DNA of 63,079 nt, the filler included, from Stramenopiles sp. TOSAG23-3 (lineage: Eukaryota), in assembly GCA_900128585.1 (NCBI GenBank). It is 4 parts of 4 records of this genome, joined end to end, with 100 filler letters (N's around TTAATTAATTAA, not from the genome) between each part and the next. Parts side by side here need not be neighbours in the genome. Positions count along the whole stretch, not along the records: positions 20,468 to 40,804 come from LT642380.1; 3 more parts are not named here. One strand, 5' to 3'. Each line of letters opens with the position of its first letter. Within the stretch, counting starts at the first letter, position 1. Below the pieces are notes generated by a model that ran no database searches, had not been told where the DNA came from, and saw only the letters and a list, made by a program, of their open reading frames with translations. The translations under genes were made by a program, and so were the position numbers. Of the stretch, positions 23,401-40,904 are shown piece after piece.

Positions 23401-26400
23401 CCGGGCGCAACGTACGTTTACACTGGACCTGTTTCAGACGAAGCAGTACGTGACGGCTTTCCTCTTGCAGCAGCAAATGAAGGGGGTAGTATCCTGGGTC
23501 AGTTTAAACCTTCAAACGTAAGTTCCCCCCTTTACAATATGCTTTGCAAACGCGTTCAAGGTGGGGCATGCACATTTCCTAGAAGAATAGTACTTAATGA
23601 AACTCTGGATTGCAATGGAGACGAATGCAAAATGGAATATCTTCGTGTCGTAAAGATGTTCGATCAATTTTCTGGGAAGACGGTGTACTACACATACAAT
23701 CGACGATCTTGTGTGCATTTGACTTTCTTCTCAAACGGCAAAGTCACAGGAAAAGCGGGCACTAACCCCTTACAATCACAGTGCGCCAACCCTAACTCAA
23801 CCGCCGCTCAGGTTACTTGCTGCGATTCTAATACTAACATAAACGGGAGAAGCGGGACGGCTATTAATGCAGCACAGTTGAATGAACGATGTATGTTTGT
23901 GGGAGAAAAAATGACGTACGATACGGCTGTCTCAAGATGCGAACAATCGGGACTTTCTGTGTGTGCTATGAAAAATAAAACTAATGATGATTGGACAGAT
24001 TGGAATAATGGTGGTTCATGGAAGGCGTGGGGGTTTACCTGTGCCCGATATGCACGTTCGTGGCTTTCAGACCCGTGCCAAGTCAAAGTACAAGTAGATG
24101 CCAGTGGCCTTGTTAATATTTACGACCCAATAAACAGCGACCACGATACTCCGATTTCGAATTCCAGAATCTTGAATTTTAAAACAAATTCAAAAAATCA
24201 ATTCCATGTTGATTGGAACAATAACCAGTTTCCATTAGCTGCAAATGGGTGCGGTGATGGTTGTGTTATAGAGAGCACAACGACATGTTTGTGTGATATC
24301 GTCATCGAAAATTTGCCTGTAATTTCAAATTTTAGTAGCATCTCTTCTAAGGAAGAGTTTGAAAGCCAAATTTCCGTTGGCGCGGTGGACCCAAACTCTT
24401 TACCAAGTGGAGAGTACAATTTATGCACAAGCAACCTCTGTAAAAACAGTGCCATGCCTAATGTCAATGTGTACTTTCAATCGGGGACATCGTCGTTTAC
24501 GACAGACACTATTTTTGAGTTTCCTTCAAATTTTGCGGGAGAAACGAATTTGTATTTCAAAAATAAAAAATCGTTTGTCTACGTTAGTGGATCTTCCTTC
24601 AAGTTCCGCAACCCTCCTCACTTTATGCCCTTGCTCGGAGAGACGTTTAATTATAAAAGTCACGAGGGAACACCAAGCTCGTTTGATGTACCGGCTGCTG
24701 AAGCTGAAATAGACGCCTTGATCGATCACCTTTTTCACCATTCCAACACTGCTCCTTTTGTGGCACATCGAATAATTCAGCGCCTTGTAACATCTAACCC
24801 ATCGCCGCGATATGTAAAAGCTGTGTCGACTGCGTTTGCCACAGGCAAACACGACGGTGTGACGTACTCTGGAAAGTACGGTGACTTGGGAGCCACAATT
24901 GTAGCTATATTACTAGACCAAGAGGCCTTGTCGCTGACCCTTCAAGCCGATCCTAGTTCAGGACGCATGCGAGAACCACTGCTTAAAATTATGCATTTTA
25001 TTCGCGCCATGGAGTATACGTCTGTAGACAGTCGAGAAATAATGTTGCGGGAAATGCAAAAGAAAATAGGGCAAGAATCATTTAGTGCCCCGTCCGTGTT
25101 CAGTTTTTTTCTGCCAGAGTATGTACCACCCGGCCCTATCGGAGATGCATTGCTGTTCAGTCCGGAAACTGAAATATTAACAACTCCTCATTTGATTTCA
25201 TACGTGAACGGCATGCTTAGTTTTATAAATTACGGTTTGACGCATTGCCACCATGGGTTTGGTGACACAGTAATTAGAGATCAGGCAGGATATGGAGAGC
25301 TTAAGAAGAAGAACTATTGTGGCAAACTTAACGCTCATATTGGCGCAGACGGATCGTTTCAATTTAAAAGTCTAAGTGGTGGGGCCTTAGCAACGGTCGA
25401 AGAAATGGACACCCTAATCACACAAGGGAGACTCAGCGACCATAATTTCCAAGTTATTCTTGATGCATACCGCGAGTCGGCAAACTCCGACGAGGCAATG
25501 GACTTGGCATTAAAATTGTTTATGCTGGCACCAGAATTTCACACAACGAGTAATAATAAGTTGACGTCGTCCATGCGCCCCAAACCATCTATCGCTGTGT
25601 CACAAAATCGAACATACAAGGCAGTAGTGGTAATATTTCTAAATGGAGGGGCGGATTCGTTTAATATATTGACGCCTTACCCGAATTCTAACTGCGCCAC
25701 AGTATCCAACGGGCAGGATTTATGGTGGGATTATGAAGATATCAGGTCGGATATGAAACTCAAAGCAAATGAACTTCTTAAAATAGACGAACCTAGCGGC
25801 ACCCAACCATGTGATGCGTTTGGAGTAAACAAGAAATTGAGCAAATTGAAAGACCTGTACAATGACGGGGACGCAGCATTTATTGCCAACATGGGCGCGC
25901 TTGTTGAACCGGTGACAAAAGAAGACTTTGTGAAGAAAAGAAAACGTTTACCACCAAATTTATTTTCCCACAATGTTATGCAACGGTCTATGCATAATGT
26001 TCATGCCCAAGATGCTGCTGCAAAAGGAGTATTGGGGCGTATAGTGGCAGCCATTACAAAAACACAGACCGAAAACAATGTCGAGCACCTTCCTTACAAA
26101 GCACAAATGTATAGCATGCAAGGTCAGATGAAAATTTTAGAGGGATCAAAACTAGTGCCGAACTTGGTTGGGAGAAATGGGGTGGTACGAATGAATAATG
26201 ATGGATACAATGAACTAGTTTCAAAAATAACAAATATGACAGATAAAGTGTCACAAAATATGTTTCCCGAGACATATTCTCAAATTCTTGAATCAAGTCT
26301 TGAGCAAACGGAATATTTGGGAAAGATGCTTGACAATGCCCAACTTGATACGACGAATTGGGCAGACGATACAATAAGCTTACAAATGAACCAAGTTGCG

Positions 26401-26916
26401 AAGATCATGAAAATGCGTTCCGAGCTCGGAAACGAACGTGATGTCTTTATGTTGAAACTGGGAGGCTGGGACACCCACAGTGACTTGAAAGAAGATTTCA
26501 ATGAACAATTAACGAAAATCAACGATGCGCTGTCAAAGTTCCACGAAGAAATAAAAACTAAACAGGGCCTTTGGGACAATGTTACAATTGTGTCCATTTC
26601 CGATTTTGGGAGAACGCTAACTTCAAACGGGAAGGGGACCGACCATGCCTGGGGTGGAAATTACTTTATCGCCGGGGGAGGGGTGAAAGGGAAAAACATT
26701 TTTGGAAAATATCCTGAAGAACTTGGTGCAAATTCTGACCTCAACCTTGGACGTGGTAGAATACTTCCAACAACCAGTTGGGAAGCAATGTGGAATTCTA
26801 TTGCGCAATGGTTTGGAGTTGTGGATTCAGAGATGGACACAGTGCTACCGAATAAAAAAAATTTCCCTTCCAGTGATATTTTTGATAAAAATGACTTGTT
26901 TGAGGGATGGGCCTGA
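20470..26916 (+). CDS. DUF1800-DUF1501 fusion protein with N-terminal Cys-rich (CxxCPAG) repeats and Cys-rich inserts; 5'-truncated
   Basis: Frame is open back to the contig edge (SCSKCPAGKSQ...CEDCSAG...CTPCPAK). DUF1800 motifs DQLRQRVAWALSQIFVI, PDENFAREVMQLFSIGL, NTAPFV...LVTSNPSPRYV, GRMREPLL and APSVFSFF. DUF1501 motifs YKAVVVIFLNGGADSFN, GGWDTHS, SDFGRTL and GTDHAWGG. Confidence 0.88.
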   Translation, partial: SSDSTVSCSKCPAGKSQKDEGQSSCEDCSAGSVTNALASTGAISCTPCPAKSFSFNSTVACTVCPAPNTTNAAVGATTCSEPHLNWTDCSGLLPPSDQPNGFPVYLRAELGLISLPKSSENLLLVLKRVTNGTGTSCVDIPVARSYDGYIWEGVPPEPAVLHHCTSQSCQINKRRKSYLFRVDAVEIAPPANRGDHAISKMFIQSTFGPTRTAINEFRDKYGPETNKSTVRSWIHDQVQLTPTTLRKYYRQRVNPRISQVVASAGPLDFCSSGSRFHRNAFDNLDLFKKIDVSAFDPTHGVYTLVVDKKVRTVINSLTQPLKAELDIGTTSFIICKVLEYVNGTMELAPNGTDCKSSTNSRKFNYVNVPINLTSASASDVQNFDATDVTVFDMKDMNGSKYTDAIIIQKFKSGTCKTKSLLGRSFIKLNYKGNDGYYMHDPRLQLIDNSLESPANFTLAENTRVSNRICPAVPKTFLNRDSCVLRKKSCNPLKFTDGQLPLNTTNIRKWYTAGQRYVYYITGLRLTDPKNKHNYDYSPCFKNTGRSRWKIISTSPCAGGGVTSGPNETWWNESYHTIASALSSSPDTNPYIRDIDVSNVCADKNQNRPELVGVKVEAGGKCWQHIHRDEYNVFDFSHWTLLGTHPGNSDALKGGRTNPIKRIAINGGTNLIFPSNHGMDRWKTYRDERTFFIKYVGRLGDSVNFASLETELQLKDMAVVASALQDTQDDEFEACGSPEEAANVPVFGNKYRFPSERTFGGFDYNLELDYPHYRFGGKQMVFTNVALKSADQLRQRVAWALSQIFVIGKEGGEPIEEWVNYYDIFIRHAFGNLKDVLKEVSYSPKMGDYLSSLKNQAYAYANKFPDENFAREVMQLFSIGLWELNQDGTYKLDSNGEKQETYTNKDIVTFSRVWTGFDVQSNRGNYEAEKGYLGGNKIDPMQIKAEWKDKLPKTKLGTGYLGDGYPLCNDLPKRHFLAPGATYVYTGPVSDEAVRDGFPLAAANEGGSILGQFKPSNVSSPLYNMLCKRVQGGACTFPRRIVLNETLDCNGDECKMEYLRVVKMFDQFSGKTVYYTYNRRSCVHLTFFSNGKVTGKAGTNPLQSQCANPNSTAAQVTCCDSNTNINGRSGTAINAAQLNERCMFVGEKMTYDTAVSRCEQSGLSVCAMKNKTNDDWTDWNNGGSWKAWGFTCARYARSWLSDPCQVKVQVDASGLVNIYDPINSDHDTPISNSRILNFKTNSKNQFHVDWNNNQFPLAANGCGDGCVIESTTTCLCDIVIENLPVISNFSSISSKEEFESQISVGAVDPNSLPSGEYNLCTSNLCKNSAMPNVNVYFQSGTSSFTTDTIFEFPSNFAGETNLYFKNKKSFVYVSGSSFKFRNPPHFMPLLGETFNYKSHEGTPSSFDVPAAEAEIDALIDHLFHHSNTAPFVAHRIIQRLVTSNPSPRYVKAVSTAFATGKHDGVTYSGKYGDLGATIVAILLDQEALSLTLQADPSSGRMREPLLKIMHFIRAMEYTSVDSREIMLREMQKKIGQESFSAPSVFSFFLPEYVPPGPIGDALLFSPETEILTTPHLISYVNGMLSFINYGLTHCHHGFGDTVIRDQAGYGELKKKNYCGKLNAHIGADGSFQFKSLSGGALATVEEMDTLITQGRLSDHNFQVILDAYRESANSDEAMDLALKLFMLAPEFHTTSNNKLTSSMRPKPSIAVSQNRTYKAVVVIFLNGGADSFNILTPYPNSNCATVSNGQDLWWDYEDIRSDMKLKANELLKIDEPSGTQPCDAFGVNKKLSKLKDLYNDGDAAFIANMGALVEPVTKEDFVKKRKRLPPNLFSHNVMQRSMHNVHAQDAAAKGVLGRIVAAITKTQTENNVEHLPYKAQMYSMQGQMKILEGSKLVPNLVGRNGVVRMNNDGYNELVSKITNMTDKVSQNMFPETYSQILESSLEQTEYLGKMLDNAQLDTTNWADDTISLQMNQVAKIMKMRSELGNERDVFMLKLGGWDTHSDLKEDFNEQLTKINDALSKFHEEIKTKQGLWDNVTIVSISDFGRTLTSNGKGTDHAWGGNYFIAGGGVKGKNIFGKYPEELGANSDLNLGRGRILPTTSWEAMWNSIAQWFGVVDSEMDTVLPNKKNFPSSDIFDKNDLFEGWA

Positions 26917-27647: not shown

Positions 27648-28877
27648 TCACTCCACGTCCATGTCCCGCCGCTCCGTTTTCTCCTCCGCGGTCGTGGATC
27701 CTTCAGGGGAGCTGGGCTGCGACCTCATTGGGACATAGTGAGTGAACCCCATGTGCCGACTGATCGACGGGAACACCTCCCCAACGGAGGGGCGGCGCTT
27801 TTCCGAAGGGCTTGGGGTCGTACCAAAGCTGTGGTCGGGTCCCACCGAATGAGGGTTCGCAAAGTGGTACCTGTTCAAGTACTGCCGGATCCTGCTGTCA
27901 ATGTCCTCCTTTTCCGATTCTTCCTTTCGCATCACCGCGGCATTTTCCCCAACGACGGCGGAATTTTGTTTCGTCTCAGATGGGTACGACGCGTCGCCGC
28001 AGTTCCCTGACAGCATCCGTTCGATACTGACGATCCGGTCTACAATGCTCGGGAGTGTGGCGGGGCCGGTACGGGCGCGGCGGTAGGCGCCCCTCCCCTT
28101 CCCGCGCTTAACGACCTTGGCCGGTCGAACAGGGCCCATCTCTTCGCCCTTAATGTCTTGGATGTTCACCCGATATTCGTCCTCTTCCTCGGTCGATTCG
28201 CTACGTTCCAATCTGTCAAGCATCGTGTTGCCTAGGCTCCACGAGAAGAATCCCATCAGGTTCTTCGAAAGCAGGTCCCCGATCGCGTGGAACAGCGCCG
28301 ACTGTCGAAACGTGATCACGGCCCCGTACTCTGGCCCGAGTGAGAATAGGACGGGAAATATCAACCAAGTGATCATCAGAAACTGCAGCAGGCGTTTCCG
28401 TTCGGGGAACATCGGCAACGACTTCACATTCTTGGTCCCGCTGATTCTGATCAGCTCCACGTACAGGGAGCCCGCAGCGACGAAAGCGAGGCCGTAGCAG
28501 ACGTGTTTCAGTGGCCCCCAATAGATCGCGCTCAGGATTCCAAAGATTGTCGTCCACAGGTTGAGGAGCCACGGGAAGGCGATCATTCTGAAGTCGCGCT
28601 TCCCGGCAAGGAGGCAGATGACGTTGGACAGCAACACGGGGCACGTGGTCAGCCAAGACATGTACCGAAGGATGGGGATCGCCCCGTTGATGTTGGTGTA
28701 CTCCTCGGGCAGCCCCATGAGCAGCGAGTACAGCACGACTTCGATCCCAACGACGTAGATGATTTCCCAGTCCACTCGCGACTGGCCTTGCCACTTCTGG
28801 TACCCGTAGAACACGAAGGACATGAAGGACACGATGAAGACCATGAACTGGACCGCGGTGTGGAGGTGGACGAGCAT
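27648..28877 (-). CDS. Channelrhodopsin, probably anion-conducting (ACR-like); 409 aa, 7TM plus ~190-aa cytoplasmic tail
   Basis: ATG 28877 in ACCATG context. TM1 QF...S...FYGYQ, TM2 WEIIYV...IE, TM3 LRYMSWLTTCPVLL, TM4 FGILSA, TM6 WLIFPVLFSLGPE and TM7 HAIGDLLSKN (retinal Lys205) all parallel ChR2 motifs. Confidence 0.93.
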   Translation of the reverse strand: MLVHLHTAVQFMVFIVSFMSFVFYGYQKWQGQSRVDWEIIYVVGIEVVLYSLLMGLPEEYTNINGAIPILRYMSWLTTCPVLLSNVICLLAGKRDFRMIAFPWLLNLWTTIFGILSAIYWGPLKHVCYGLAFVAAGSLYVELIRISGTKNVKSLPMFPERKRLLQFLMITWLIFPVLFSLGPEYGAVITFRQSALFHAIGDLLSKNLMGFFSWSLGNTMLDRLERSESTEEEDEYRVNIQDIKGEEMGPVRPAKVVKRGKGRGAYRRARTGPATLPSIVDRIVSIERMLSGNCGDASYPSETKQNSAVVGENAAVMRKEESEKEDIDSRIRQYLNRYHFANPHSVGPDHSFGTTPSPSEKRRPSVGEVFPSISRHMGFTHYVPMRSQPSSPEGSTTAEEKTERRDMDVE

Positions 28878-30188
28878 GGTTGGCTGTTGGTTGGTTGGTC
28901 GGTTTGTTTTCGTGTGTTTCGTTTGTGTGTTTATTTTGTACGTTTGTGTTGTTCTTATTTTTGTGCTGGTACCAAAGAAAACTTTCTCGTTGTGTTTCTT
29001 CTCTAAGAGGGAAGCGCAGAACGTGGCCCCACCCGGGAGTACAAAGCGGTGTACAAACCCGTTGTCTGGGGGGTTGTTAACAAAGTGAGTTGTGGTTGCA
29101 AACACATACGCTATATCGAAGTGGCACGCGCTCGATGACGAAGCATTCGGTTCCACAGCCTGTGGCAATACCCATATAGAAAGACCCGAAAAAATGGAGA
29201 TATTTTTATACAGGCGCGTATGAGAGTGAGTGGTGAGAGACAACACCATGGGGTATAATTTTTCTTCTTCTTTTTATTTTACTTAATGCTGTGTGTATGT
29301 GTATAATACATAAAAAAATTATGGCGATAGGTAAAAAAGAGGAAATTTGTATTCTAAAAACTAGGTATATTTTGAAAGTTATGAATGAGGGCTCGAAGGT
29401 CAAATGGAATATGAAAGAATTAGTACAACTATTTCCTATCAAAATAATTTTCAAATACAAATATTTCTTGATGATTTTTTTATACCCCATCGACCAAACC
29501 ACTGATGAAAAAAATTGCCTTCTTCTCTCCTCTTCTTGGCTTGGTTCTTTTTTTTTGGTCGAAATAAATACCCAAAACCCAAACCATAAAAAAATAAAAA
29601 TAAAATAAGTGTTTGCTTCATTCATTCAGGAATCTAAAATCTAACGTAATGATATATAGTGTTAAAAGTTAAATAAAAAGTGATGATGAATGAATGAATG
29701 TTACTTATATTAATACTTAGACTATAATTATTATACGAGGATGATGTCCTCGTATTTAGTTATATTTATTATAAGCAAAATATAATAAAAATTTCAATCA
29801 TTTTTATTTTTAAAAAATAAATAAAAAGCCAACCTCCTCTTAAATTTTTTTTTATAATTCAACAGAGGAAATATTTGTCCCAATTTGATCCATGCTGTGT
29901 ATATGTATTTTATTGTTTATTTTACCTTTAAAAAAGCCCCGGCGGCGGCGCGGCGTGGCGCGTGTGTCACCACCGTCCTCTTTCGTCATTCGCACTTCCC
30001 TGCACTACTAATTTCTCACTTTCCGAAAAATCCAGGGCCCCTCGTCTCAGAAACTTTACGTACAGAGTTCATGAATTATCGTGTAAACTATTTGTCTTTA
30101 CCCCAACGTTCTATCAGTAAAAAACAAACTAGCTCAAATTCACCCTACCCTTCCTTTACAAGTCATCCCTCACCGCCTTTCCGAAAAT

Positions 30189-30683
30189 ATGATACAAGCT
30201 GGAGAGTCCTACGTCGACTCGGACTCCGGGGAAGTCGTAAAGATCAAGTCCATCAGCCCCCCCGCAAAAACAAACCTAAAGTCTATTCGAATCGTCACCG
30301 CGATGGACGCACAAAATCAGCCCATCGTTTATCGAAGAGAATGGTACCCGACTATCGACAGTTCGGGCATGCCCGAATTCGAAGATTTCGAGCACGGCAA
30401 AAAGTACCTCGTGCAGAATGCAAAGAACGGGGACGTGGAGCTTCTCCGTGTGGAATCCACGGAGACCATGGTCGAGAACGAAGAGTCCAAGGTCGCCGTA
30501 GTCACAGGGTCCGTGTATAGACTGGACGGCGTCTTTCCGGTCACGTTTACAAAGAAGTACTTTCACGACGGCGTTTCCACTTGCTGTTACACCATTGTCA
30601 AGAAGCAGGTCACGGAAATGCCGTTCTCCGAGCGGTTCACAAAGTGCGGGACCGGCCTCGGAAGGCGCATGTCGATTGTGTGA
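30189..30683 (+). CDS. Hypothetical 164-aa beta-rich protein, divergent from the rhodopsin gene
   Basis: AAAATATG start, C/G-ending codon bias like neighbouring genes, AT-rich flanks. No recognised domain. Confidence 0.65.
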   Translation: MIQAGESYVDSDSGEVVKIKSISPPAKTNLKSIRIVTAMDAQNQPIVYRREWYPTIDSSGMPEFEDFEHGKKYLVQNAKNGDVELLRVESTETMVENEESKVAVVTGSVYRLDGVFPVTFTKKYFHDGVSTCCYTIVKKQVTEMPFSERFTKCGTGLGRRMSIV

Positions 30684-30898
30684 TACTGCCTCGATCGAAA
30701 ATTGAAAAAGAAATGTACATAGTTGCAAATTTATGTCGTTGCAGTTACAGTCCGTAAAAGTGCCTTTGTTTGAACCATTCCATTTTTATGGGTCTCGTCC
30801 ATATAAAAAAGTAAAGCGCGTTGTAAAAGTTTGTAATTTAATTAAAACCTCCAAAACAATATTTAACTTCTTAATAAGTTCTAATTTTACATATCTTA

Positions 30899-32424
30899 TT
30901 ATAAAATACACGCGTAACTTTTCTTCCCGAACAGATCGACGTTCTGGTAAAACGTGTTGTTCTTCATAAGCCATTCCTGATAGTGGTACTTGTTCCGGTA
31001 CAGGTACTCGTCGTCTACCCGCGTGCGATACGCGGAAGGGGACAGGGCGTTGGTGGTCCTTCGGTATGCGGAGGAGGGCCGCGTGTACTTTCTCGGCTTG
31101 AACGATTTCGGGAGCTTGTCGTCGATGAACGAATTCGTGTGCTTCACCCTCTTCTTGTGGGCATTTTGAACGGTGCGAAAATGAACCAGCTGTTCCCTGC
31201 TCATGTGGTTCTTGAGGGTTCGGGGGAGCTTGACGTCTGGGACACGGGAAATCTCGTCTTTGATGCGGAGCTTTGCCCGGTTCACGGTCCACACCAGGGA
31301 CTTTGGCGGTTGCGTGTCGACGCCCTGCCGGGCGTGCTCGACGCCTTGCTTGTGAAACTTTGCCATTTCGTCCAGGAAGAGCTTGGTGCTCGTGCTTTTC
31401 CGTCGGTGCTCCTTTACTGGCTCGAGCTTGATTATTTGCGTTTTGTGGTTCACCTTGACCGATTTCAGGATTTGCGTCCGCTGGGACTGCTCGTGGATGT
31501 AATTCTTCAACGACTTGGACTTTCCCTTGGTCGACGTGACGACGACTTTCTTCAGCACGCTCCACTTCGACTTGGGGGGGTTCGCGGACTCCGACTCGGG
31601 CTCGGATGGAGACTTGGGATCGGGAAGGTGCTTTCCGGCCATCTTCAGGGCAACGTCGAAGATGCCCAGCTTCATCTTTGACGCGAAGATAGAGCCTGCT
31701 TTTGCCCCGCCCCCCCCCCTGCACTGGCTGGAACGGGCGCGTTCGTCTTGTGCCGAAGGATCATGTCCATTATCGGCGAATCGTTCTCTTGGATCGACAG
31801 CATCTGGCACGTGACGCGGAGCATTTTGACCTTTCCCCGGGCAATGCAGTTCGCCGTTCGAACTTTTTGTTTCGACAGAACGGCCCGCTCTCCAAAAATT
31901 TCCCCTGGTGCGATAGAGTTCACCTTTCGTTGGCAGCTTGGGACGGTCGTATCGTTCACCGTCACGTCGACGAACCCCTCGGTGATGACGAAGAAGGAGT
32001 TCCCCTCCTCGCCTTCTTTCACGATGACCTCCCCTTCCTTGTAGGCTACTTCTTCCACCTCTACCCCTGGGCCGAGCTGTTCTATAACGTTTTGGCCTTT
32101 TCGCCGGTGAACCCTCAGCTCGGTGTTGTCCTCCAGCGCTCGGCACGTCGCCGTCCGCTGAAAGTTCTCCCGGAGCAACGCGAGCTCCCCGAACGTCTCG
32201 CCCTCCCGAAGGGTCGCTAATAGCTTTTCCCTTGGCAGAAAGTGTGTAGTGTCCACGGCGTACACCCCGACGGAGCCATGGCTTATTTTGAATGATTCGT
32301 GCCCAAAATCCCCTTTCGAAAATATTTTCTGCCGACGCGAGTACGTCCGGGAGGTGGACTTTAGTTCTACGATGGACTGCGAGAAGGTAGGGGAACCTGC
32401 GGCAGGGGATGGTGTTTCGGCCAT
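30899..32424 (-). CDS. Tandem cyclic-nucleotide-binding-domain protein with a basic tail; frameshift at a G10 run (31710-31719)
   Basis: Two CNB domains: IFSKGDFG...GETFGELALL...RTATCRA and IVKEGEEG...GEIFGERAVL...RTANCIA. One extra G joins the 250-aa ORF to the downstream open frame, giving about 508 aa. Confidence 0.8.
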
Positions 32425-33493
32425 CGCTCGGGGTGCAATATTGTCTAACCGCGATCGAGCCTGAATTTGGTACGCTGTTTAACTTTGAGACGTTCCTGGG
32501 TTGTGAATATGCATGAATATAGATAGATAAATAGGCTGTTTTATCATGAATTTCTGTTCCAGAAGAAGAAAGTATCGTGCCAATGGTAATCCGAAATATA
32601 ATATTATTTTTTTCCCCTTTTTTTTCACTCACATCTTCTCGTTCCATCCATCGCGTCCAATTTTTTTTTACATCTTCTCTCGCTCTCTCCCCATTCATCG
32701 TCTCATCGACTGGGATCATCGACATCAATCACATCTTCTATCATCATTTCACTTAACTTATATTATAGGACTCATATAGCACCTATTATTTGGTTGTGTG
32801 CAATACGCGTAGGAGACTAATAGCTATATAAATAAATAATTATGAAAAAAGAAAGAAAGCGCTGCTATTTATTTAATCTATTATATAATAGTCGTATATA
32901 GCTATATATCTATATATCTACACACAATAACATTAATTAGGCAAAATAAAATATCGAGATCTATTTTTTTACCCAATTTTTTCATTTTTTTGCTGATGGT
33001 ATTTCCTTTCTATTCTTATTTGTAGAACGACTAAAGACTAAAATAAGAAGAGAATATAATATAGCTAGTTTTTTAGTTCTCTCTTCGCGATCGATCGAAC
33101 AAATAGAATAATTAACAATTGATAAAATATGTGAATGCTATTACATAGTCTACCGTTTGCATAGCATACGTAGACGAAAATGAAGCATTATTTTGATTTT
33201 GACTTTTTTTTTACACATTCAATGAACCCAACCAACAAACCCATTTTTTTTATACTTTGTTGTTATTTATTATGTTATCGTTATGTTATTCTTTTATATT
33301 TTATTATTATTTTTTTATATTTTGTATGTTATATTTATAATAATAATTGTACCATTATTTTGACATTATTTTACCTTCTGTGATGATAAGGGAACTAAAA
33401 AAAAGACCAGGCTAAAAAAAGGAAAGGCTCCAGAATAAGTTTTTAAAAGCCAAATAATAGACAAAGTCTAGAGGAGTATGAAAAGCACAAGAT

Positions 33494-33530
33494 GAAGGAA
33501 GGAAGGAAGGAAGGAAGGAAAGGAAGGAAG
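33494..33530. repeat. (GAAG)n microsatellite
   Basis: gaaggaaggaagg... tract in the divergent intergenic region. Confidence 0.8.
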
Positions 33531-34011
33531 ATACCAAAGTAAAACAATAAATAATAAAGTATAGATATATGTATTGTAATATTTTATTCAACCTATATAA
33601 TATGTTACTTTATAGTTCTATATTTGTTAATAAATAGATATGAACGAACCGTACCTTTTTACTATTGGAATTTGGAATACGATACTTTCCTTTGCTGTTT
33701 TTCTATTATTTGGTACATCATAACATACACAACACAGCAGGCAGCCGAAGAAGAAAGAACGAACGAACGAATGCGCTGCTGTTTTGTTGTGCTTGCGCCA
33801 ATTAATTCACAATTCACCAATATAACATCTTAAGATATATATAATGCATGTATACGTATCCGTTTGTTATTGTTCAATTGTATACACAACAACATTAATC
33901 TAGGCAACAGCGCAATGTCTTCATTTTAAGTGTGTAAATGAATGTCTATGGTGTCCAAGTATATTTATCCTGCGTCGCGTTTGTTTTTAATCGCTCCTCC
34001 TCGTCGTGGCC

Positions 34012-35856
34012 ATGGCAAAGGCGAGCAGCAGTAACTATATCATTGAAGACTTCGAAGAGGATGATATCCCAGAAGCGAAGTTCATAGACATGGAGGACCC
34101 GCCGGCCCGGCCCCGGCGGTCGCGGCCCGCGCTTCAAAAGCGGCCCACGCTCCGTATCGACGCGGGCGCAGAGACCAAAGCAGACCCGAAAGAGGGCGGC
34201 CCGTCCTCGCCCAACCCCCCGCCGCCGACGCCCTCTTCCTCCCAGCCCACCGGGAAAGAACGGCGACGATCCTCTTTCGCGCTCACCCCACGGGCTCGGG
34301 AGATGTGGACCGGGCTCCGGGAAACGTTTCGTTCAGGCTCTGCCAAGGTCAGGAGCCTCTCCCCGCATAACAAAGACGCGCAGCGCTTCAGGGCCATGTC
34401 CGTCGGAAACATAGACGTGAGCCGGCGAGAGCTGGAGGCAGCGGCAAGTGAGCGGAGCAAGTGGCGGTGCTTTCGCTCTTTCTCGGACTACCTCCCCCTG
34501 CACCCAAAGCAAGAGTGGAAGCAGCGATGGAACGGCATCCTAGCGGCTTCCTTGGTCTGCCTCCTGTTCGTCTCTCCATTCATGATGGGATTTTCGAGGG
34601 AGCTGGACCCAGACGTTCGGACCTTCCTGACGGTCCTCGACGTCTTCATCGACGTCGTGTTCGTGGGAGACATTGCCATGCAGTTCCTCACGGCCTACTA
34701 CACAAAGGACGGGGAGCTCGTGACGTGCGAGTACAAGATCGCCCAGAACTACCTTCGGACGTGGTTCTTCGTGGACCTTGTCAGCGTCATTCCATTTCAC
34801 TACATGCTCTCGAACCAGTTCGCAAAGCTGGCTCGGTTTGTAAAGCCGTTGAAGCTGATCACGCTCCTCCGCCTCTTCCGCCTCCGGCGCCTGAGGGCGA
34901 TGGTCGACTCGTACGACATTGGGACGACGCTGGGGAAGATCCTCACGTACATGGCATGCATGTTCGTGACGTCCCACGTGATGGCCTGTTTCTGGTACTT
35001 CATCGCGGACCTCCACGACTTTGACCACACGACGTGGATCTTTCAGTACGATCCGGACACCAAAACGATCGGGTCCAAGTACCTCCTGTGCTGGTACTGG
35101 GCGATCGTCACGGTGACGACCGTGGGGTACGGGGATGTAATCCCGAACTCGGACGAGGAGCGGACCTTTGCCGCCCTCTGCTCCTTTGTCGGGTCGGTGG
35201 GTTTCGCGTTCTTGGTGGGGAAGATGTCCGCGATCGCGAACGGGGCCGAGCAGTCCAACATCAAGTTCCAGAATAAGATGTCCAATATCGTAGCGTTTAT
35301 GAAAGCGAACAGGTTCCCGGTCCACCTTCGCCGGCGTATACGAGAGTTCTACGAGGAGAAGCGATACGTCGGGGACCTGATCGACGCGGACGAGGTGTTC
35401 CACGAGCTGTCCTTCCCGCTGCGAAAGGAAGTCTCCCTGTACTGCAACAGGGACGCCATAAAACGGGTCCCGTTCTTCTCCGCGTGCGAGGGTGCCCTCT
35501 TGGAGGCCCTCCTCCTGAAGCTAAAGTCCCGACACTTCGTTGCGGGCGACTATATCATTCGAAAAGGGGACGTAGGGAACGAAATGTACATACTGAACAA
35601 GGGGGAGGTGAGCGTGGTCACAGAGGACGGCAAGGTCCTCGCGACGCTCGGGGAAGGGAGCTTTTTCGGAGAGATAGCGCTCCTGAGCGACCACTCCCGG
35701 CGGACTGCCTCTCTGAAGGCGGACATCAACTGTTTGATTTACTGCCTGGAGAAGAAAGACCTGGCCGATGTGTGCCGGAAGTTTCCAAAGTTCGACGCGG
35801 AGATCAAGCTGTTGGCGAACACCCGGTTGGCTGCGACGATGGAGAAGAAGGGATGA
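34012..35856 (+). CDS. 6TM cyclic-nucleotide-regulated K+ channel (KCNH/HCN/CNG superfamily)
   Basis: S2-S3 DIAMQF.TAY and IAQNYLRTWFFVDLVSVIP. S4 LLRLFRLRRLR. Filter TTVGYGD. C-linker and CNBD GSFFGEIALL...RRTASLKA. Confidence 0.93.
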   Translation: MAKASSSNYIIEDFEEDDIPEAKFIDMEDPPARPRRSRPALQKRPTLRIDAGAETKADPKEGGPSSPNPPPPTPSSSQPTGKERRRSSFALTPRAREMWTGLRETFRSGSAKVRSLSPHNKDAQRFRAMSVGNIDVSRRELEAAASERSKWRCFRSFSDYLPLHPKQEWKQRWNGILAASLVCLLFVSPFMMGFSRELDPDVRTFLTVLDVFIDVVFVGDIAMQFLTAYYTKDGELVTCEYKIAQNYLRTWFFVDLVSVIPFHYMLSNQFAKLARFVKPLKLITLLRLFRLRRLRAMVDSYDIGTTLGKILTYMACMFVTSHVMACFWYFIADLHDFDHTTWIFQYDPDTKTIGSKYLLCWYWAIVTVTTVGYGDVIPNSDEERTFAALCSFVGSVGFAFLVGKMSAIANGAEQSNIKFQNKMSNIVAFMKANRFPVHLRRRIREFYEEKRYVGDLIDADEVFHELSFPLRKEVSLYCNRDAIKRVPFFSACEGALLEALLLKLKSRHFVAGDYIIRKGDVGNEMYILNKGEVSVVTEDGKVLATLGEGSFFGEIALLSDHSRRTASLKADINCLIYCLEKKDLADVCRKFPKFDAEIKLLANTRLAATMEKKG

Positions 35857-36781
35857 GGGGAGAGGAAAGGGGGGGAGGAAAGAAAGGTTGTCTACCTTGG
35901 TAAAAATAAATTTTATATTCTACTGAAGAACTTTAACGTTTATTTGTAATGGTTACGACCTTCGTCTGCTTTTAAACGATGATTTTTCCTTTTGACCTCG
36001 GTCGATTCTTACTGACAAATGAAAATGGTTTTTGATCGAAATCTGAACGGGTGTGGGTAAAAAGCTGGAAGAATAAAATACCTCCTCCTCTTCTTTTCCA
36101 TAATTAATATTGATAGGAATTCATTTATAAATGTTAAGTACTTACATTCGTATTCAATATAATAATTAATTCCTCAAAAATATCCTCTTTTTTTGTCTAT
36201 ATAATACTATAGAAGTATACAAATGTTCGTATTTGTAATTTCATTTAAAAAAAAGCATTAAATTATTGATAGTTATTCCTCTTTCTAATCTCACAACATT
36301 GAATACCATCTGTTATAATATAATTTATAAATTAGAATATATTTTATAATGTATTATAATGGGATTTTGAAGAAGAAAAAAGAAGAAGAAAGAAGATTTC
36401 TTCTTTTTTTATTTTTTATTTTTTATTATTTTTTTTTTTTTTTTATTATTATTAGAGTTCCGTTCATCATTTTATTATTATTAATTTAATAAATTTTCTT
36501 CTTGTTTCTCTTCTTCTTCTTCTTCTCTATTATAATCAGGGTTAATAAAAAAAATAATAATAATATAATTATAATTCCTCACCACCGAACAGACTCTGTA
36601 TATTATAATAATCAATTTAAACAGTTTTATATGGAATCATCGATCCCTATTTAATTTCATTCTTTTCGGCACGAAAGGTATGGATCGATCGATCGATTGA
36701 ATAATTTTATTGCCAACCCCAGTTTATACAAGCGATACAGAGTACAGCTGGTACGCACACCACCAACACCACTAACACCAC

Positions 36782-37927
36782 ATGAGCGACGCTGGGGGCG
36801 AGGCCCCACCGCCTGCGGGTGGGAAGAAGCAGCTGGACCTTGCGGAGACGGTTAAAAAATTGAAACGGTTGGTGACGCTGTACAAAAAAGAGGTTGATCG
36901 GCTGAAGGAAAAGGAGTCTGCCCTTTTGGTGGAGCTCGAGGAGCAGAAGGAGCAGAACCGTCGTGCCCAAACCCCCCCGCCGGCCCTCCCGTTCTACGCC
37001 AACGCCCGGCCCATAGAAGTCCCCATGCGGGTCAAGTGCAAGCCGTCAGGGGTGCACTGGTGCTACGTAAAGTATGACGCGGAGGATGACGGGGGAGACA
37101 GGGACTCGGACGGGGGGGACAGGGATTCGAACGGGTCAGATGAGGGAGTGAAGTACGCATGGCGGCGGGAGATCGATGTGGTGGCCCAGGCAGAAGACTT
37201 TGGGGTGACGCTGCAGCTCCCGGACGTCCTGGAGGACGGGGAGACGGGGCGGTCGACGCACAAGGACCTGGAGCGGCAGCTAACGATCGCGCACGACAAC
37301 ATCGAGCGGGTCCAGGAGGACTTTCGACGGTACCGTGTGCGCGCGGAGATTGTCCGTCGGCAGAAGGAGTCAGAAATTAGCAAGCTGATGGAAACGTCGG
37401 CCGAGTTCAACGAGCAGCAGCTGGCCTTCGACAGCAAAGTGGAGGACCAGTTGAACTACACCAAGCAGGTCCTTGCGGAAAAGGAGGGGGAGAACAAAAA
37501 GTTGAAGGCAAAGTGCGACTCTCAAAAGGCCGACTGGGACAGGCTGAAACGCGAGAATCAGCAGCTCAAACAGCTCCTCGACAGCGGCGGGGCCAGGGGG
37601 GACGAGACGTTGGCGGCGAAGCACCAAAAGCTGAAGCAGGAGTACCAGGCGTACCGAAAGCGCGCGATGCAACTGTTGAAGAACAAGGGGAAGGACGGAG
37701 GCGGGGGCGGCGCGGCGGCGAAGAAGGACCAAGGCATCGACGCAGAGGCCGTCGTATACCTTCGGAACACGGTCCTCAAGTACATGGCAACGGACAGAGA
37801 AGAGGTGAGGGAACAGATGGAGGGCGCCATCGCAACCGTGCTGCGGTTCAACAAGCAAGATTTAGAGTACGTCTCGAAGCAGAGGTCCCAGAGCCGGAGC
37901 TGGGCCGCGTGGATGGGCGTGTCGTAA
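36782..37927 (+). CDS. GRIP-domain golgin-like coiled-coil protein
   Basis: Coiled coils and C-terminal YLRNTVLKYM...AIATVLRF...W GRIP motif. Internal 21-bp duplication at 37088-37129 (DGGDRDS x2). Confidence 0.85.
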   Translation: MSDAGGEAPPPAGGKKQLDLAETVKKLKRLVTLYKKEVDRLKEKESALLVELEEQKEQNRRAQTPPPALPFYANARPIEVPMRVKCKPSGVHWCYVKYDAEDDGGDRDSDGGDRDSNGSDEGVKYAWRREIDVVAQAEDFGVTLQLPDVLEDGETGRSTHKDLERQLTIAHDNIERVQEDFRRYRVRAEIVRRQKESEISKLMETSAEFNEQQLAFDSKVEDQLNYTKQVLAEKEGENKKLKAKCDSQKADWDRLKRENQQLKQLLDSGGARGDETLAAKHQKLKQEYQAYRKRAMQLLKNKGKDGGGGGAAAKKDQGIDAEAVVYLRNTVLKYMATDREEVREQMEGAIATVLRFNKQDLEYVSKQRSQSRSWAAWMGVS

Positions 37928-37973
37928 GGGAGATGCAACAAGTGTGGCTATCTTCATAGTTTTAGCTAGGAAG

Positions 37974-38130
37974 TTGGCTGTTATTTAAGTAATTACAATT
38001 AATGTACTGCGAACTGAACTCTACTGCTCTACTGCTCTACTGTCTTAACAGTTCGCCCTTCTTTGCTTCATTTATACAGTAAGTTGTTTAAGACTTAGAA
38101 GTAGTAAATAACAGCCAATTTTCTTGTTTT
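37974..38130. repeat. Inverted pair of the dispersed TTGGCTGTTATTTA element
   Basis: TTGGCTGTTATTTA at 37974-37987 and its exact reverse complement at 38105-38118. Confidence 0.8.
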
Positions 38131-38221
38131 TAGTAAACTCTCTTTCTACAAAATCTAAGGTAAGATATGTGCCTCTCCTCTCTACAGTTCAATACTGGTT
38201 GTTTGGAGGGATGAACATGTT

Positions 38222-39757
38222 TTACTGACCCTCCCCTCCCCCACCATCATCCCCCCCTTCGCCAATCTTTAAATTTGCCACCCCAAGTTCACCCACCTCC
38301 CCCTCCTCTTCCACCAAATCATCGTACTCCTCTACAAACCGCTCGTACTCCGCCGTGTCCACGTCGTTGTGAACCATCCCCATGGCCGGGGCGTGGTTCG
38401 CGGCCAGGACTTTTCCGCGTTTCGTCTTCCTCTTCTTCCTCTCTTTCGGGGGGTTCATCTTCTTCACCAAAACGACATCCGGGACCGTGTCGCACTTCAC
38501 ACTCGTCGTGCCGTTGTACGAGGTCATGTCAAACCCAAGCGCGGAGTCCCCCGCCTTCAGGTGCTGCCCAAGGTGCGAGTAGACCGTGTACTGCGTGTCG
38601 TTCACGCCGAGGTCCGACGCCCGGGCGACCGTTACCTCGGCCAAAATGTACCGGCTCCCGGTTTCCTGGGCCACGCCCGTCGCCACCGCATTTGCCCCCT
38701 CCGGCGTCTGCCTCAAGTCGCGCTCGTACCGTTCCAGGATTTCGGCCCGTTTGTCCTGCTTCTTCTTCTTTCGTTTCGCCTTTGCCCCGGGCCTTCCCCG
38801 CCGGGCCAGGCTCGGCTGCGGCCGCACGACGATGGAGTCGAGCACGACGAACTCGACCAGGTTGCGGGACGTCATTGCGGGCTCTAGGGGGTCGCGGTAG
38901 AATGCCTTTTCGTTCAGGGAGGACTCCTCCAGTGTCGACGGGTTCAGCAGGTGCACGCTTCCGGCGATCTTGGTGCAGATGACGACCTGACCAATGCTCC
39001 CGCAGGACGCCATTTGCTTCTTGCTCAGGACCAGCAGGTCGTCGGCGCACACCGGGATGATCTCGACCGACCAAGTGAACTCGTACCGGTCCTTCCCGAC
39101 CAGGCTCTTCGACTTTTTTTCTCGCACGGGGACGTGCGACTTCAAAAATTGGACGAACTTTGCCGCCGCAGACTTTGTGTTGAACTTGAAGTCGATCCCA
39201 TCCTTCTTCGGGTCCAAGTTCGCGATCGCCCCCTGCGCTTTGTGTTTGATGATGAGCTGCTCCAGGTAGAAGAACGTTCGCTTGTGGTCCACGTGCTGGC
39301 GCACCTGGACCGTCGCCGTCGAGTTCATGTCCGCGTTCTCCTCGTGACAGTCCGGGCAGAACTGGTTCTTTAGGACATACTCCACAACAAATGTCTGCTT
39401 GAGCTGAACCCCTAGCGCTTCTTTCTGAACGTCCAGTCGAACCTTGACCCGCTTCGAGTGGGGCTCCGTCCATATGAAATTTGCGTCCAACAGCTTTACT
39501 TTGGACAGTCCGGGGAGCGTCCGAAGGCAGATCGCAAGGAGCTCCCGGCTCTCAAAGTCGGCAAAGACCCACGGCGGCCGGTTGATGCGAAGGCACTGTT
39601 TGCACCACAGCAAAAAATGTTCCTTCGGGATCCCTTCTGTGATGTCAACCTGAGACGCAAGGCACCCGTCGCACATCGCTGCCGCATTGAACTTTATCGA
39701 TACCCCGCACAGACAGCAGAGGATGTTCGACGCCGTCTGCTTCGGGAACGCAGACAT
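38222..39757 (-). CDS. NMD3: 60S ribosomal export protein NMD3
   Basis: ILCCLCG...N.AAMC..C, ESRELLAICL, DANFIWTEPHSKRVKV, VQVRQHVDHKRTFFYLEQLIIKH, SHLG.HL..GD...GFD and PDVVLVKK. Confidence 0.96.
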   Translation of the reverse strand: MSAFPKQTASNILCCLCGVSIKFNAAAMCDGCLASQVDITEGIPKEHFLLWCKQCLRINRPPWVFADFESRELLAICLRTLPGLSKVKLLDANFIWTEPHSKRVKVRLDVQKEALGVQLKQTFVVEYVLKNQFCPDCHEENADMNSTATVQVRQHVDHKRTFFYLEQLIIKHKAQGAIANLDPKKDGIDFKFNTKSAAAKFVQFLKSHVPVREKKSKSLVGKDRYEFTWSVEIIPVCADDLLVLSKKQMASCGSIGQVVICTKIAGSVHLLNPSTLEESSLNEKAFYRDPLEPAMTSRNLVEFVVLDSIVVRPQPSLARRGRPGAKAKRKKKKQDKRAEILERYERDLRQTPEGANAVATGVAQETGSRYILAEVTVARASDLGVNDTQYTVYSHLGQHLKAGDSALGFDMTSYNGTTSVKCDTVPDVVLVKKMNPPKERKKRKTKRGKVLAANHAPAMGMVHNDVDTAEYERFVEEYDDLVEEEGEVGELGVANLKIGEGGDDGGGGEGQ

Positions 39758-40804: not shown

Positions 40805-40904
40805 NNNNNNNNNNNNNNNNNNNNNNNNNNNNNNNNNNNNNNNNNNNNTTAATTAATTAANNNNNNNNNNNNNNNNNNNNNNNNNNNNNNNNNNNNNNNN
40901 NNNN
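40805..40904. other. Artificial contig linker
   Basis: 44 N + TTAATTAATTAA + 44 N. Confidence 0.98.

What the first reader, a model, noticed from the sequence alone, without database searches (positions are those of the whole stretch)
27648..35856. Candidate light/cyclic-nucleotide excitability cluster: channelrhodopsin, orphan, tandem-CNB protein and CNB-gated K+ channel
Seen: four consecutive genes on one contig, arranged as two head-to-head pairs (ChR with the orphan; tandem-CNB protein with the K+ channel). All three CNB domains keep FGE.A and an R-T-A phosphate-binding cassette. All four proteins carry basophilic RRxS motifs: ChR tail KRRPSV, orphan RRMSIV-COOH, CNB tail RRKST and channel RRRSSF. 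Established: Thr after the cassette Arg is associated with cGMP recognition in PKG and CNG channels. Inference: a co-regulated photosensory or flagellar-control module in which a light-gated channel and a cNMP-gated K+ channel set membrane potential. Caveats: CNB channels are numerous in protists and RRxS is common, so adjacency may be chance. No cyclase or phosphodiesterase gene is in view.
Basis: inference. Interest (0 to 1): 0.72.

Follow-up and report, generated by a model that had tools for sequence, protein, structure and literature searches.

The report
Channelrhodopsin beside cyclic-nucleotide signalling genes
Four real neighbouring genes of an uncultured marine protist encode a light-gated channel, an orphan protein, a cyclic-nucleotide sensor and a cyclic-nucleotide-binding potassium channel, but whether they work as one unit is still unproven.

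Summary
Window 27648-35856 carries four intron-less genes as two head-to-head pairs:
- a channelrhodopsin (409 aa) with an anion-channel-like residue pattern;
- a 164-aa orphan, found only in its own 90%-identity cluster;
- a tandem-CNB protein;
- an HCN/CNG-superfamily K+ channel with S4, a GYG filter and a canonical CNBD.

All quoted FGE.A/R-T-A and RRxS motifs are present.

Corrections:
- The CNB gene is frame-broken in this assembly at a G10 run. Other assemblies encode an intact 507-aa protein.
- R-T-A does not indicate cGMP, because HCN1 has it too.
- Head-to-head pairing is the local default: 8 of 21 junctions are divergent, and the first ten genes alternate strand.

The "co-regulated module" reading could not be decided.

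For it:
- A ChR homologue (39% identity) and the K+ channel's closest homologue (55%) each list a longest contig of 13,637 nt, so they probably share a contig in a relative.
- RRxS occurs in 4 of 4 cluster proteins against 5 of 18 other ORFs (post hoc p about 0.002).
- The motif is conserved in the CNB-tail family and in the closest channel homologue.

Against it:
- The ChR motif is lost in its 69%-identical homologue.
- No shared promoter motif was found, and no cyclase or phosphodiesterase lies in the window.

Expression was not tested, and no genome is held for a CNB count. The scan holds no look-alike on other DNA. Module odds are about 0.3.

The parts
27648..28877 (-). Channelrhodopsin gene, 409 aa: a 7TM rhodopsin domain plus a cytoplasmic tail of about 190 aa. 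The tail carries KRRPSV.
   Evidence: Pfam PF01036 E 3.3e-24. The best solved relatives are channelrhodopsins: C1C2 3ug9 E 3.6e-17, ChR2 6eid, GtACR1 about 4e-11. In that alignment the DxxxK Schiff-base lysine motif, the Cys at the ChR2 C128 position and the Glu at E82/E90 are kept. Ser replaces E123 and Asn replaces D156 (ChR2 numbering recalled). Homologues start at the Met at 28877.
28878..30188 (.). Divergent spacer between the ChR and the orphan, 1311 nt, GC 0.35.
   Evidence: No tRNA or Rfam match in the window.
30189..30683 (+). Orphan gene, 164 aa, ending in RRMSIV.
   Evidence: No Pfam family, even at E up to 10. The homologue search returned only its own 90% cluster. That cluster has 6 members from several assemblies, 93-99% identical, and 5 of 6 are full length with the same C-terminus. 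GC3 is 0.70, like coding neighbours. The AlphaFold2 model is all-beta but unreliable, mean pLDDT 45.
31672..32424 (-). First ORF of the tandem-CNB gene, 250 aa: CNB-A and CNB-B, both with FGE.A and R-T-A.
   Evidence: PF00027, two stretches, E 2.1e-29. The closest solved relatives are the CNB domains of apicomplexan PKG (E 1.6e-21), then PKG I and PKA RI.
31710..31719 (-). G10 homopolymer (C10 on the + strand), where the reading frame of the CNB gene breaks in this assembly.
   Evidence: P0059 (507 aa, 99% identical) reads ...SAGGGGAKAGSIF... across it, joining both ORFs. That reading fits a run two bases shorter (my frame arithmetic).
30899..31675 (-). Tail ORF of the same gene, 258 aa from its first ATG: a basic region predicted helical, with RRKST and a conserved core (FHKQGVE...GVDTQPP...LPRTLKNHM).
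   Evidence: GC3 0.78. 17 representative proteins match it at E<=0.001. RRx[ST] is kept in 4 of the 6 other-species homologues that cover the site. No Pfam, PDB or Atlas match.
32425..34011 (.). Divergent spacer between the CNB gene and the K+ channel, about 1.58 kb, GC 0.31.
   Evidence: Only AT-rich 10-12-mers are shared with the other divergent spacer.
34012..35856 (+). K+ channel of the HCN/CNG superfamily, 614 aa from the ATG. It has a disordered N-terminus with RRRSSF, S1-S6 with a basic S4, a TVGYGD filter, a C-linker and a canonical CNBD.
   Evidence: Pfam Ion_trans, Ion_trans_2 and cNMP_binding. Best solved relatives: HCN1 E 6.5e-62, LliK (5v4s) 1.7e-60, then CNGA, hERG and SthK. The closest homologues are 55%, 49% and 46% identical. 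RRRS followed by TPRA.E.W is kept in P0006.

Best explanation
The stretch is a neighbourhood of four real, separately transcribed genes in a compact, intron-poor genome of an uncultured marine protist. Three of them encode membrane-excitability or cyclic-nucleotide signalling proteins. Each most likely works as its family does.

1. Channelrhodopsin. A light-gated channel whose residue pattern (Glu82 and Glu90 kept; non-carboxylate at 83, 97, 101 and 123) matches the pattern reported for stramenopile and MerMAID-type anion channels. Light would open a conductance, probably for anions.
2. K+ channel. It has a voltage sensor, a GYG filter, a C-linker and a binding-competent CNBD. It would pass K+ under control of voltage and cAMP or cGMP, driving the membrane towards the K+ potential.
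3. Tandem-CNB protein (507 aa when intact). A soluble cyclic-nucleotide receptor with PKG/PKA-type CNB domains, joined to a conserved basic helical tail of unknown function.
4. RRxS sites. The conserved RRxST in that tail and the RRRS in the channel N-terminus are probable targets of a basophilic (PKA/PKG-like) kinase.

Shown: the gene identities, the architecture and the motif conservation. Inferred: ion selectivity, ligand, and phosphorylation.

The adjacency is most likely inherited gene order in a genome where divergent pairs are the default. It is not a demonstrated regulatory unit. Any coupling between the ChR and the K+ channel would run through the shared membrane potential.
For: - Family assignments.
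- The Glu pattern compared with passages of PMC8406140.
- An intact 507-aa CNB-tail protein exists in other assemblies. The tandem-CNB-plus-tail architecture recurs in P0065/P0097 and P0096.
- RRx[ST] is kept in 4 of 6 tail homologues, and RRRS is kept in the closest channel homologue.
- Default architecture: 8 divergent, 8 convergent and 5 tandem junctions of 21, and the first ten genes alternate strand.
- The high-GC3 block (0.67-0.81) runs on through the GRIP and NMD3 genes, so it is not specific to the four.
- The ChR's RRPS is absent from P0002 (69% identity), P0003, P0004 and the L001 homologue.
- There is no shared promoter element beyond AT-rich 10-12-mers.
- No cyclase or phosphodiesterase lies in the window.
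- The three CNB domains are 27-41% identical to each other, so they are not a recent local duplication.
Against: - A ChR homologue and the closest channel homologue both list a 13,637-nt longest contig. This suggests the linkage has survived to 39-55% protein identity.
- Two CNB genes within three genes of a ChR is improbable if CNB genes are rare and randomly placed: 6e-5 to 6e-3 for assumed fractions of 0.2-2%.
- RRxS in all four proteins is nominally unlikely: 0.0019 and 2e-4.
- The two divergent spacers (1311 and 1581 nt) are among the three longest of the eight in the window. Long spacers could mean more elaborate regulation.
Confidence: 0.55

Rival explanations
1. Selected photo-electrical module. 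The ChR, the K+ channel and the cNMP sensor are kept together and co-regulated from two bidirectional promoters. Light opens the ChR. The cNMP- and voltage-controlled K+ channel shapes or ends the voltage signal that steers the flagellum. A PKA/PKG-like kinase adapts all components through their RRxS sites.
For: - A probable shared 13,637-nt contig for the ChR homologue P0049 and the channel homologue P0046 in a relative. The length-matching method recovers two known adjacencies: P0059 with P0122 at 2745 nt, and the P0061 and P0063 clusters at four shared lengths.
- RRxS in 4 of 4 proteins against 5 of 18. It is conserved in the tail family and in the closest channel homologue.
- Two CNB genes sit next to a ChR.
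- Precedent for rhodopsin plus a K+-selective cNMP-gated channel in zoospore phototaxis: BeGC1/BeCNG1, passages of PMC4046227.
- ChR1 phosphorylation is reported to change with phototactic behaviour, as cited in a passage of PMC10637977.
Against: - The shared contig is inferred from equal lengths only. Even if real, it may be neutral retention of gene order.
- None of the 10 tail-homologue clusters looked up lists 13,637 nt, and the orphan has no homologue outside its own cluster.
- The K+ channel homologue P0007 sits on a 22,828-nt contig, and no listed member of the four ChR clusters looked up lists that length. This is weak evidence.
- The ChR's RRPS is not kept at 69% identity.
- A channelrhodopsin needs no second messenger, and no cyclase or phosphodiesterase is nearby.
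- No shared promoter motif was found.
- Functional clustering is uncommon in eukaryotes (established knowledge).
Confidence: 0.3
2. Only the CNB protein and the K+ channel are functionally paired. They share a bidirectional promoter and the same second messenger. The ChR and the orphan are unrelated bystanders.
For: - The two genes are head-to-head 1581 nt apart, and both have canonical CNB domains.
- Channel CNBD and CNB-A are the most similar of the three domain pairs: 31 of 76 aligned positions identical.
- Both proteins carry an RRxS site that is conserved in homologues.
Against: - Linkage of this pair in relatives is unknown. No tail-family cluster shares a contig length with the channel clusters.
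- Divergent pairs are the default arrangement.
- The one lead for conserved linkage concerns the ChR and the channel, not this pair.
Confidence: 0.12
3. Assembly artefact or foreign island: the four genes were joined by mis-assembly, or came in together by transfer, for example from a giant virus carrying a channelrhodopsin.
For: - A frame break at a G10 run shows that the assembly has homopolymer errors or variants.
- The GC3 of these genes is higher than in most of the window.
Against: - An independent contig of 2745 nt appears to join the orphan and the CNB gene as the window does.
- Several DNA runs from different studies hold 30-76% of the stretch's sampled words (none was laid).
- The GC3 block includes the core eukaryotic NMD3 gene and a GRIP-domain gene.
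- No relative of the ChR was found in the viral contig collection.
Confidence: 0.03

Closest known systems
Stramenopile anion channelrhodopsins / MerMAID-type ChRs (PMC8406140 and PMC8163842, passages read)
   Same: - 7TM ChR fold by sequence, with the best solved relatives being ChRs.
- Glu82 and Glu90 are kept and position 123 is non-carboxylate. This is the pattern those papers give for cryptophyte ACRs, MerMAIDs and stramenopile ACRs.
- The source is a marine, probably heterotrophic, protist, as for the ChRs reported from uncultured marine stramenopiles.
   Different: - Only 4 homologues turned up in the word-indexed search. No MerMAID sequence was at hand, so clade membership was not tested.
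- This protein has Asn at the DC-gate aspartate and a long conserved tail.
- The paper itself warns that the same Glu pattern can go with cation or anion conductance, so selectivity is unproven.
Blastocladiella BeGC1 / BeCNG1 phototaxis pathway (PMC4046227, passages read)
   Same: - A microbial rhodopsin and a CNBD channel with the GYGD K+ signature occur in a flagellated cell.
- The proposed logic is that a light signal is converted into a K+-dependent voltage change that alters flagellar beating.
   Different: - There the rhodopsin is fused to a guanylyl cyclase and makes the cGMP that gates the channel.
- Here the rhodopsin is a channel with no cyclase domain, and no cyclase lies in the window.
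- In the passages I read, the fungal pair was linked by shared expression pattern, and gene adjacency is not mentioned.
HCN, CNG and prokaryotic CNBD K+ channels (HCN1, LliK, SthK)
   Same: Six TM segments with a basic S4, a pore loop, a C-linker and a canonical CNBD. HCN1 E 6.5e-62, LliK 1.7e-60, SthK 1.8e-46.
   Different: - The filter is TVGYGD, a full K+ signature, where HCN1 has CIGYG in the alignment.
- The long disordered N-terminus carries a conserved RRRS...TPRA.E.W motif.
- Gating polarity and ligand are unknown.
Tandem CNB domains of PKG and of PKA regulatory subunits
   Same: Two consecutive canonical CNB domains. The best solved matches are apicomplexan PKG, PKG I and PKA RI. An RRxS/T motif like the R-subunit inhibitor site is present.
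   Different: - There is no kinase domain and no N-terminal docking domain.
- The RRxST lies about 100 residues after CNB-B, not before CNB-A.
- The tail that carries it also exists without CNB domains (P0062, P0066).

Membership tests
Channelrhodopsin | Seven-helix microbial rhodopsin domain with the Schiff-base lysine in helix 7 | tested here: met
   PF01036 E 3.3e-24. The motif ...GDLLSKNLMG... aligns to the DLMSKNCWG of C1C2.
Channelrhodopsin | Closer to ChRs than to pumps or sensory rhodopsins, with ChR-type helix 2 and helix 3 residues | tested here: met
   The top 12 solved matches are all ChRs (E 3.6e-17 to 6.5e-11). Sensory rhodopsin II and pumps score 1e-08 or weaker. The helix-2 WE..Y...E pattern and the helix-3 TCP motif are aligned.
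Channelrhodopsin | Light-gated passive ion conductance | not testable with these tools
   Needs patch-clamp recording of the expressed protein.
MerMAID / stramenopile ACR clade | Placement inside that clade in a ChR phylogeny | not tested
   No reference sequences of the clade were retrieved. Only the Glu82/Glu90/non-carboxylate-123 pattern agrees.
CNBD-family K+ channel (HCN/CNG/KAT superfamily) | Ion_trans core plus C-linker plus CNBD in one chain | tested here: met
   the alignment to HCN1 runs over query residues 161-608.
CNBD-family K+ channel (HCN/CNG/KAT superfamily) | K+ selectivity signature T-V-G-Y-G-D | tested here: met
   TVTTVGYGD is in the translation, and V371-D375 (VGYGD) are invariant in all 7 sequences of the homologue alignment.
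CNBD-family K+ channel (HCN/CNG/KAT superfamily) | Binding-competent phosphate-binding cassette (FGE...R-T/S-A) and gating by cAMP or cGMP | tested here: inconclusive
   The cassette FGEIALLSDHSRRTAS is intact. Ligand identity and gating cannot be read from the sequence. HCN1 has the same RRTAS.
PKA regulatory subunit | N-terminal dimerisation/docking domain and an inhibitor site before CNB-A | tested here: not met
   The protein starts about 25 residues before CNB-A, and no docking-domain family was found. RRKST lies after CNB-B.
cGMP-dependent protein kinase | Kinase domain after the CNB domains | tested here: not met
   No kinase family was found in the CNB ORF, in the 609-aa ORF in the tail's frame that spans the gene, or in the intact P0059.
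Co-regulated functional gene cluster | Linkage conserved in relatives beyond background synteny | tested here: inconclusive
   Equal longest-contig length (13,637 nt) for a ChR homologue and a channel homologue. The contig itself could not be fetched (searches returned no contig of a close relative with neighbouring genes). Background synteny is unknown.
Co-regulated functional gene cluster | Correlated expression of the members | not tested
Co-regulated functional gene cluster | Shared regulatory element in the two divergent spacers | tested here: not met
   Only 13 shared 10-mers, all AT-rich. The longest shared word is 12 nt. This is a low-power test.
Rhodopsin-cyclase / CNG K+ channel pathway (BeGC1/BeCNG1 type) | Rhodopsin fused to, or next to, a nucleotide cyclase | tested here: not met
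   No cyclase family was found in the ChR or in any of the 22 further long ORFs scanned across the window.

The most novel reading that the evidence does not exclude
In a lineage of uncultured marine heterotrophic flagellates, a channelrhodopsin, a soluble tandem-CNB sensor and a voltage- and cNMP-controlled K+ channel are kept as a conserved gene neighbourhood and act as one phototransduction unit. The light-gated (anion) current is shaped by a cyclic-nucleotide-tuned K+ conductance. All components are adapted by a PKA/PKG-type kinase through conserved RRxS sites. This would be the first channelrhodopsin-centred signalling gene cluster, and a direct genomic link between ChR photoreception and cyclic-nucleotide signalling.
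Probability: 0.25. Interest if true: 0.7.

Novelty: new member of a known kind. Interest (0 to 1): 0.4.

Why it matters
How heterotrophic marine flagellates use channelrhodopsins is unknown. The MAST genomics paper can only suggest phototaxis. If a ChR, a cNMP sensor and a CNBD K+ channel were truly kept together, the locus would name the downstream partners of a protist ChR. It would also make that pathway testable by expression in standard cells. As it stands, the locus offers three things:
- a well-defined ACR-like ChR with a conserved tail;
- a K+-selective HCN-like channel;
- an undescribed family that joins tandem CNB domains to a conserved tail carrying RRxST.

The linkage claim is only a lead. 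It can be settled quickly by fetching one contig.

Tried and rejected
- Synteny. No genome is held. The metagenome scan gave one 2,109-nt contig holding only a ChR homologue. Viral and prokaryote-genome scans gave no ChR relative and only distant K+ channels, at most 31% identical over the full length; I did not examine those further. The scan's own index has no look-alike window.
- Expression. Nothing was laid, and nothing can be said about transcription, co-expression or the G-run in reads.
- Orphan. No homologue outside its own cluster, no Pfam family, and no usable Atlas hit (best 0.81). The AlphaFold2 model has pLDDT 45, too poor for a fold search, so none was run.
- CNB tail. No Pfam hit at E up to 10, no PDB hit with a family profile, and no Atlas hit. 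The AlphaFold2 model has pLDDT 49.6 and was not searched. A recalled likeness to a ciliary protein family found no support in these scans.
- Promoters. Nothing beyond AT-rich words is shared.
- Local duplication. This does not explain the two CNB genes: the domains are only 27-41% identical.
- PKA-R or PKG membership of the CNB protein is rejected.
- R-T-A as a cGMP marker is rejected.
- Viral or foreign island is rejected.
- No complex prediction was run, because I do not claim that any two of these proteins bind.
- Literature. Searches for a described ChR/CNG gene cluster listed none. I read passages of four papers only.

Full report
**What is there**

- **Channelrhodopsin**, minus strand, 27648-28877. 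It begins at the Met at 28877, where its homologues begin. A longer upstream ORF is not supported.
- **Orphan**, plus strand, 30189-30683, reached after a 1311-nt AT-rich spacer. It encodes 164 aa.
- **Tandem-CNB gene**, minus strand, 30899-32424. It converges on the orphan, 215 nt away.
- **K+ channel**, plus strand, reached after a 1581-nt spacer. An ATG lies at 34012, an upstream GTG at 34006, and the stop at 35856.

Pfam confirms Bac_rhodopsin for the first gene (E 3.3e-24) and two cNMP_binding stretches for the third (E 2.1e-29). The fourth has Ion_trans, Ion_trans_2 and cNMP_binding. The orphan matches no family.

**Correction to the gene model**

In this assembly the CNB domains and the tail that carries RRKST are in different frames. 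The 250-aa CNB ORF stops at 31672. The tail frame is entered within a G10 run at 31710-31719.

A HMMER search of 1.84 billion representative proteins with the tail found P0059, 507 aa and 99% identical, with the tail at residues 250-507. P0059 and a second 507-aa member from another source read straight across the run. The real product is therefore one protein: two CNB domains plus the tail. The window carries either a homopolymer error or a broken allele.

**The four proteins**

*Channelrhodopsin.*
- Its best solved relatives are all ChRs: C1C2 E 3.6e-17, ChR2, and GtACR1 at about 4e-11. Pumps and sensory rhodopsins score 1e-08 or weaker.
- In that alignment the Schiff-base lysine motif, the Cys of the helix-3 TCP motif and the glutamates at the ChR2 positions 82 and 90 are kept. 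Positions 83, 97, 101 and 123 are not carboxylates, and Asn sits at the DC-gate aspartate (ChR2 numbering recalled).
- Passages of PMC8406140 give Glu82 plus Glu90 as the pattern of cryptophyte ACRs, MerMAIDs and stramenopile ACRs. The same paper warns that one pattern can accompany either cation or anion conductance.
- PMC8163842 reports MerMAID-type ChRs in uncultured marine stramenopiles.
- Only four homologues were found, at 98, 69, 44 and 39% identity, plus one more on a 2,109-nt metagenome contig.

*K+ channel.*
- It aligns over residues 161-608 to HCN1 (E 6.5e-62) and nearly as well to the bacterial LliK, then to CNG, hERG and SthK channels.
- It has a basic S4, a TVGYGD filter, a C-linker and an intact phosphate-binding cassette.
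- It is better described as a voltage-sensor-bearing, cNMP-modulated K+ channel than as simply "CNB-gated".

*Tandem-CNB protein.* Its CNB domains are closest to those of apicomplexan PKG, PKG I and PKA RI. It has no kinase domain and no docking domain.

*The tail.*
- It is a family of its own, with 17 representative hits.
- Tandem CNB domains precede it in at least two further lineages (P0065/P0097 and P0096). It stands alone in others (P0062, P0066).
- It has no Pfam, PDB or Atlas match, and the fold model was poor.

*Orphan.* It is intact in 5 of the 6 near-identical members of its cluster, which come from several assemblies, and it has coding-like GC3. No relative outside that cluster was found, and no reliable model was obtained.

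**Is the pattern more than chance?**

*RRxS.*
- It is rarer in this window than I expected. It occurs in 4 of 4 cluster proteins but in only 5 of 18 other ORFs: 9 sites in 14,420 residues.
- At that rate, the probability that all four proteins carry one is 0.0019. By shuffling each protein it is 2e-4.
- These figures are post hoc. For the looser [RK][RK]x[ST] the figure is 0.12.

*Conservation of the motif is mixed.*
- The tail's RRx[ST] is kept in 4 of the 6 other-species homologues that cover the site, and a fifth has RRKCT.
- The channel's RRRS, followed by TPRA.E.W, is kept in the closest homologue, P0006. It is absent from P0007 and P0009, and P0008 lacks the N-terminus.
- The ChR's RRPS is present only in the 98% variant. 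It is absent from P0002 (69%), P0003, P0004 and the L001 homologue.

*R-T-A cannot be read as a cGMP preference.* HCN1 shows RRTAS at the aligned position, and HCN channels prefer cAMP (recalled knowledge).

**Is the arrangement special?**

- Head-to-head pairing is not special. Of 21 gene junctions in the window, 8 are divergent, 8 convergent and 5 tandem. The first ten genes strictly alternate strand.
- The two spacers share only AT-rich words.
- The four genes do share high GC3 (0.67-0.81, against 0.40-0.69 for the ORFs outside the block). The same is true of the next two genes, which encode a GRIP-domain protein and NMD3. This is a regional property, not a mark of the cluster.
- No cyclase, phosphodiesterase or further CNB gene was found among the other long ORFs.
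- The three CNB domains are 27-41% identical to each other, so the two CNB genes are not a recent local duplication.
- Without a genome, the CNB gene fraction is unknown. For assumed fractions of 0.2-2%, two CNB genes within three genes of a given gene has probability 6e-5 to 6e-3. For the much wider class of genes that could have been woven into a signalling story, I estimate 0.1-0.2 (inference).

**Conserved linkage: one lead**

Direct synteny tests failed for lack of contigs. The protein collection does report the longest contig for each sequence.

- P0049 is a member of the ChR cluster at 39% identity. P0046 is a member of the channel cluster at 55% identity. Both list 13,637 nt.
- The same kind of match recovers two adjacencies that are known independently. 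The orphan variant P0122 and the intact CNB protein P0059 both list 2,745 nt, and these two genes are neighbours in the window. The P0061 and P0063 clusters hold the two halves of one tail gene, and they share four lengths.
- I therefore think it likely, though not shown, that a relative keeps a ChR and this K+ channel within 13.6 kb.
- Against this, none of the tail-homologue clusters I looked up lists 13,637 nt. The 22,828-nt contig of the channel homologue P0007 is matched by no listed ChR cluster member.
- Retained linkage could also be plain synteny.

**Verdict**

The parts are new members of known families, plus an undescribed CNB-tail family.

The most likely account (0.55) is an ordinary neighbourhood of genes in a compact genome. 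Each gene acts as its family does, and any ChR-K+ channel coupling runs only through the shared membrane potential.

The selected-module reading remains open at about 0.3. It can be settled by fetching one contig, counting CNB genes in the assembly, and laying the metatranscriptome runs already identified.

The nearest described system that pairs a rhodopsin with a K+-selective CNBD channel is BeGC1/BeCNG1 of Blastocladiella (passages of PMC4046227). It works through a rhodopsin-fused cyclase, which is absent here.

My literature searches listed no described ChR-centred gene cluster. I read only passages of four papers and saw no supplements.

Noticed in passing
window 31710-31719 (- strand G10): The tandem-CNB gene is frame-broken at a homopolymer in this assembly. 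Two other assemblies encode an intact 507-aa protein (P0059, P0076). Other long homopolymers exist in the window, including a C40 run at 14695-14734.
   Followed up: partly
window 30899-31675 (-); P0060, P0062, P0064, P0065, P0066: The tail of the CNB protein belongs to an unannotated family with a conserved RRxST and a GVDTQPP...LPRTLKNHM core. The family occurs with tandem CNB domains in front (at least three lineages) or alone. It has no Pfam, PDB or Atlas match.
   Followed up: partly
window 27648-39757: Six consecutive genes (ChR, orphan, CNB-tail, K+ channel, GRIP-domain protein, NMD3) have GC3 of 0.67-0.81. The ORFs outside the block have 0.40-0.69. This is a compositional block of unknown cause.
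   Followed up: no
window 718-35856: The first ten genes alternate strand strictly (-,+,-,+...), giving five consecutive divergent pairs. Coding GC is high and spacers are AT-rich (GC 0.27-0.39).
   Followed up: partly
window 20578-26916 (+): A 2112-aa ORF joins a Cys-rich N-terminal region to DUF1800 and DUF1501. I recall these two as mostly bacterial families (no call checked this). The ORF sits immediately downstream of the ChR, convergent with it, and has a low GC3 of 0.40.
   Followed up: no
window 40849-45216 (-): Three ORFs overlap by 128 and 88 nt in different frames: uDENN/DENN, an ORF with no Pfam family, and a p25-alpha-containing ORF. They could be one gene with frame breaks or short introns.
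   Followed up: no
window 27648-28230 (ChR tail); L001 146-1390: The ChR cytoplasmic tail keeps short motifs across 40-69% identical homologues: AKV.KRG.G, an I/LERM helix and S.GPDH. This hints at a conserved interaction surface.
   Followed up: no
window 34260-34330 (channel N-terminus): The motif RRRS(x5-6)TPRA.E.W is kept between this channel and its 55%-identical homologue P0006, inside an otherwise unconserved disordered N-terminus.
   Followed up: partly
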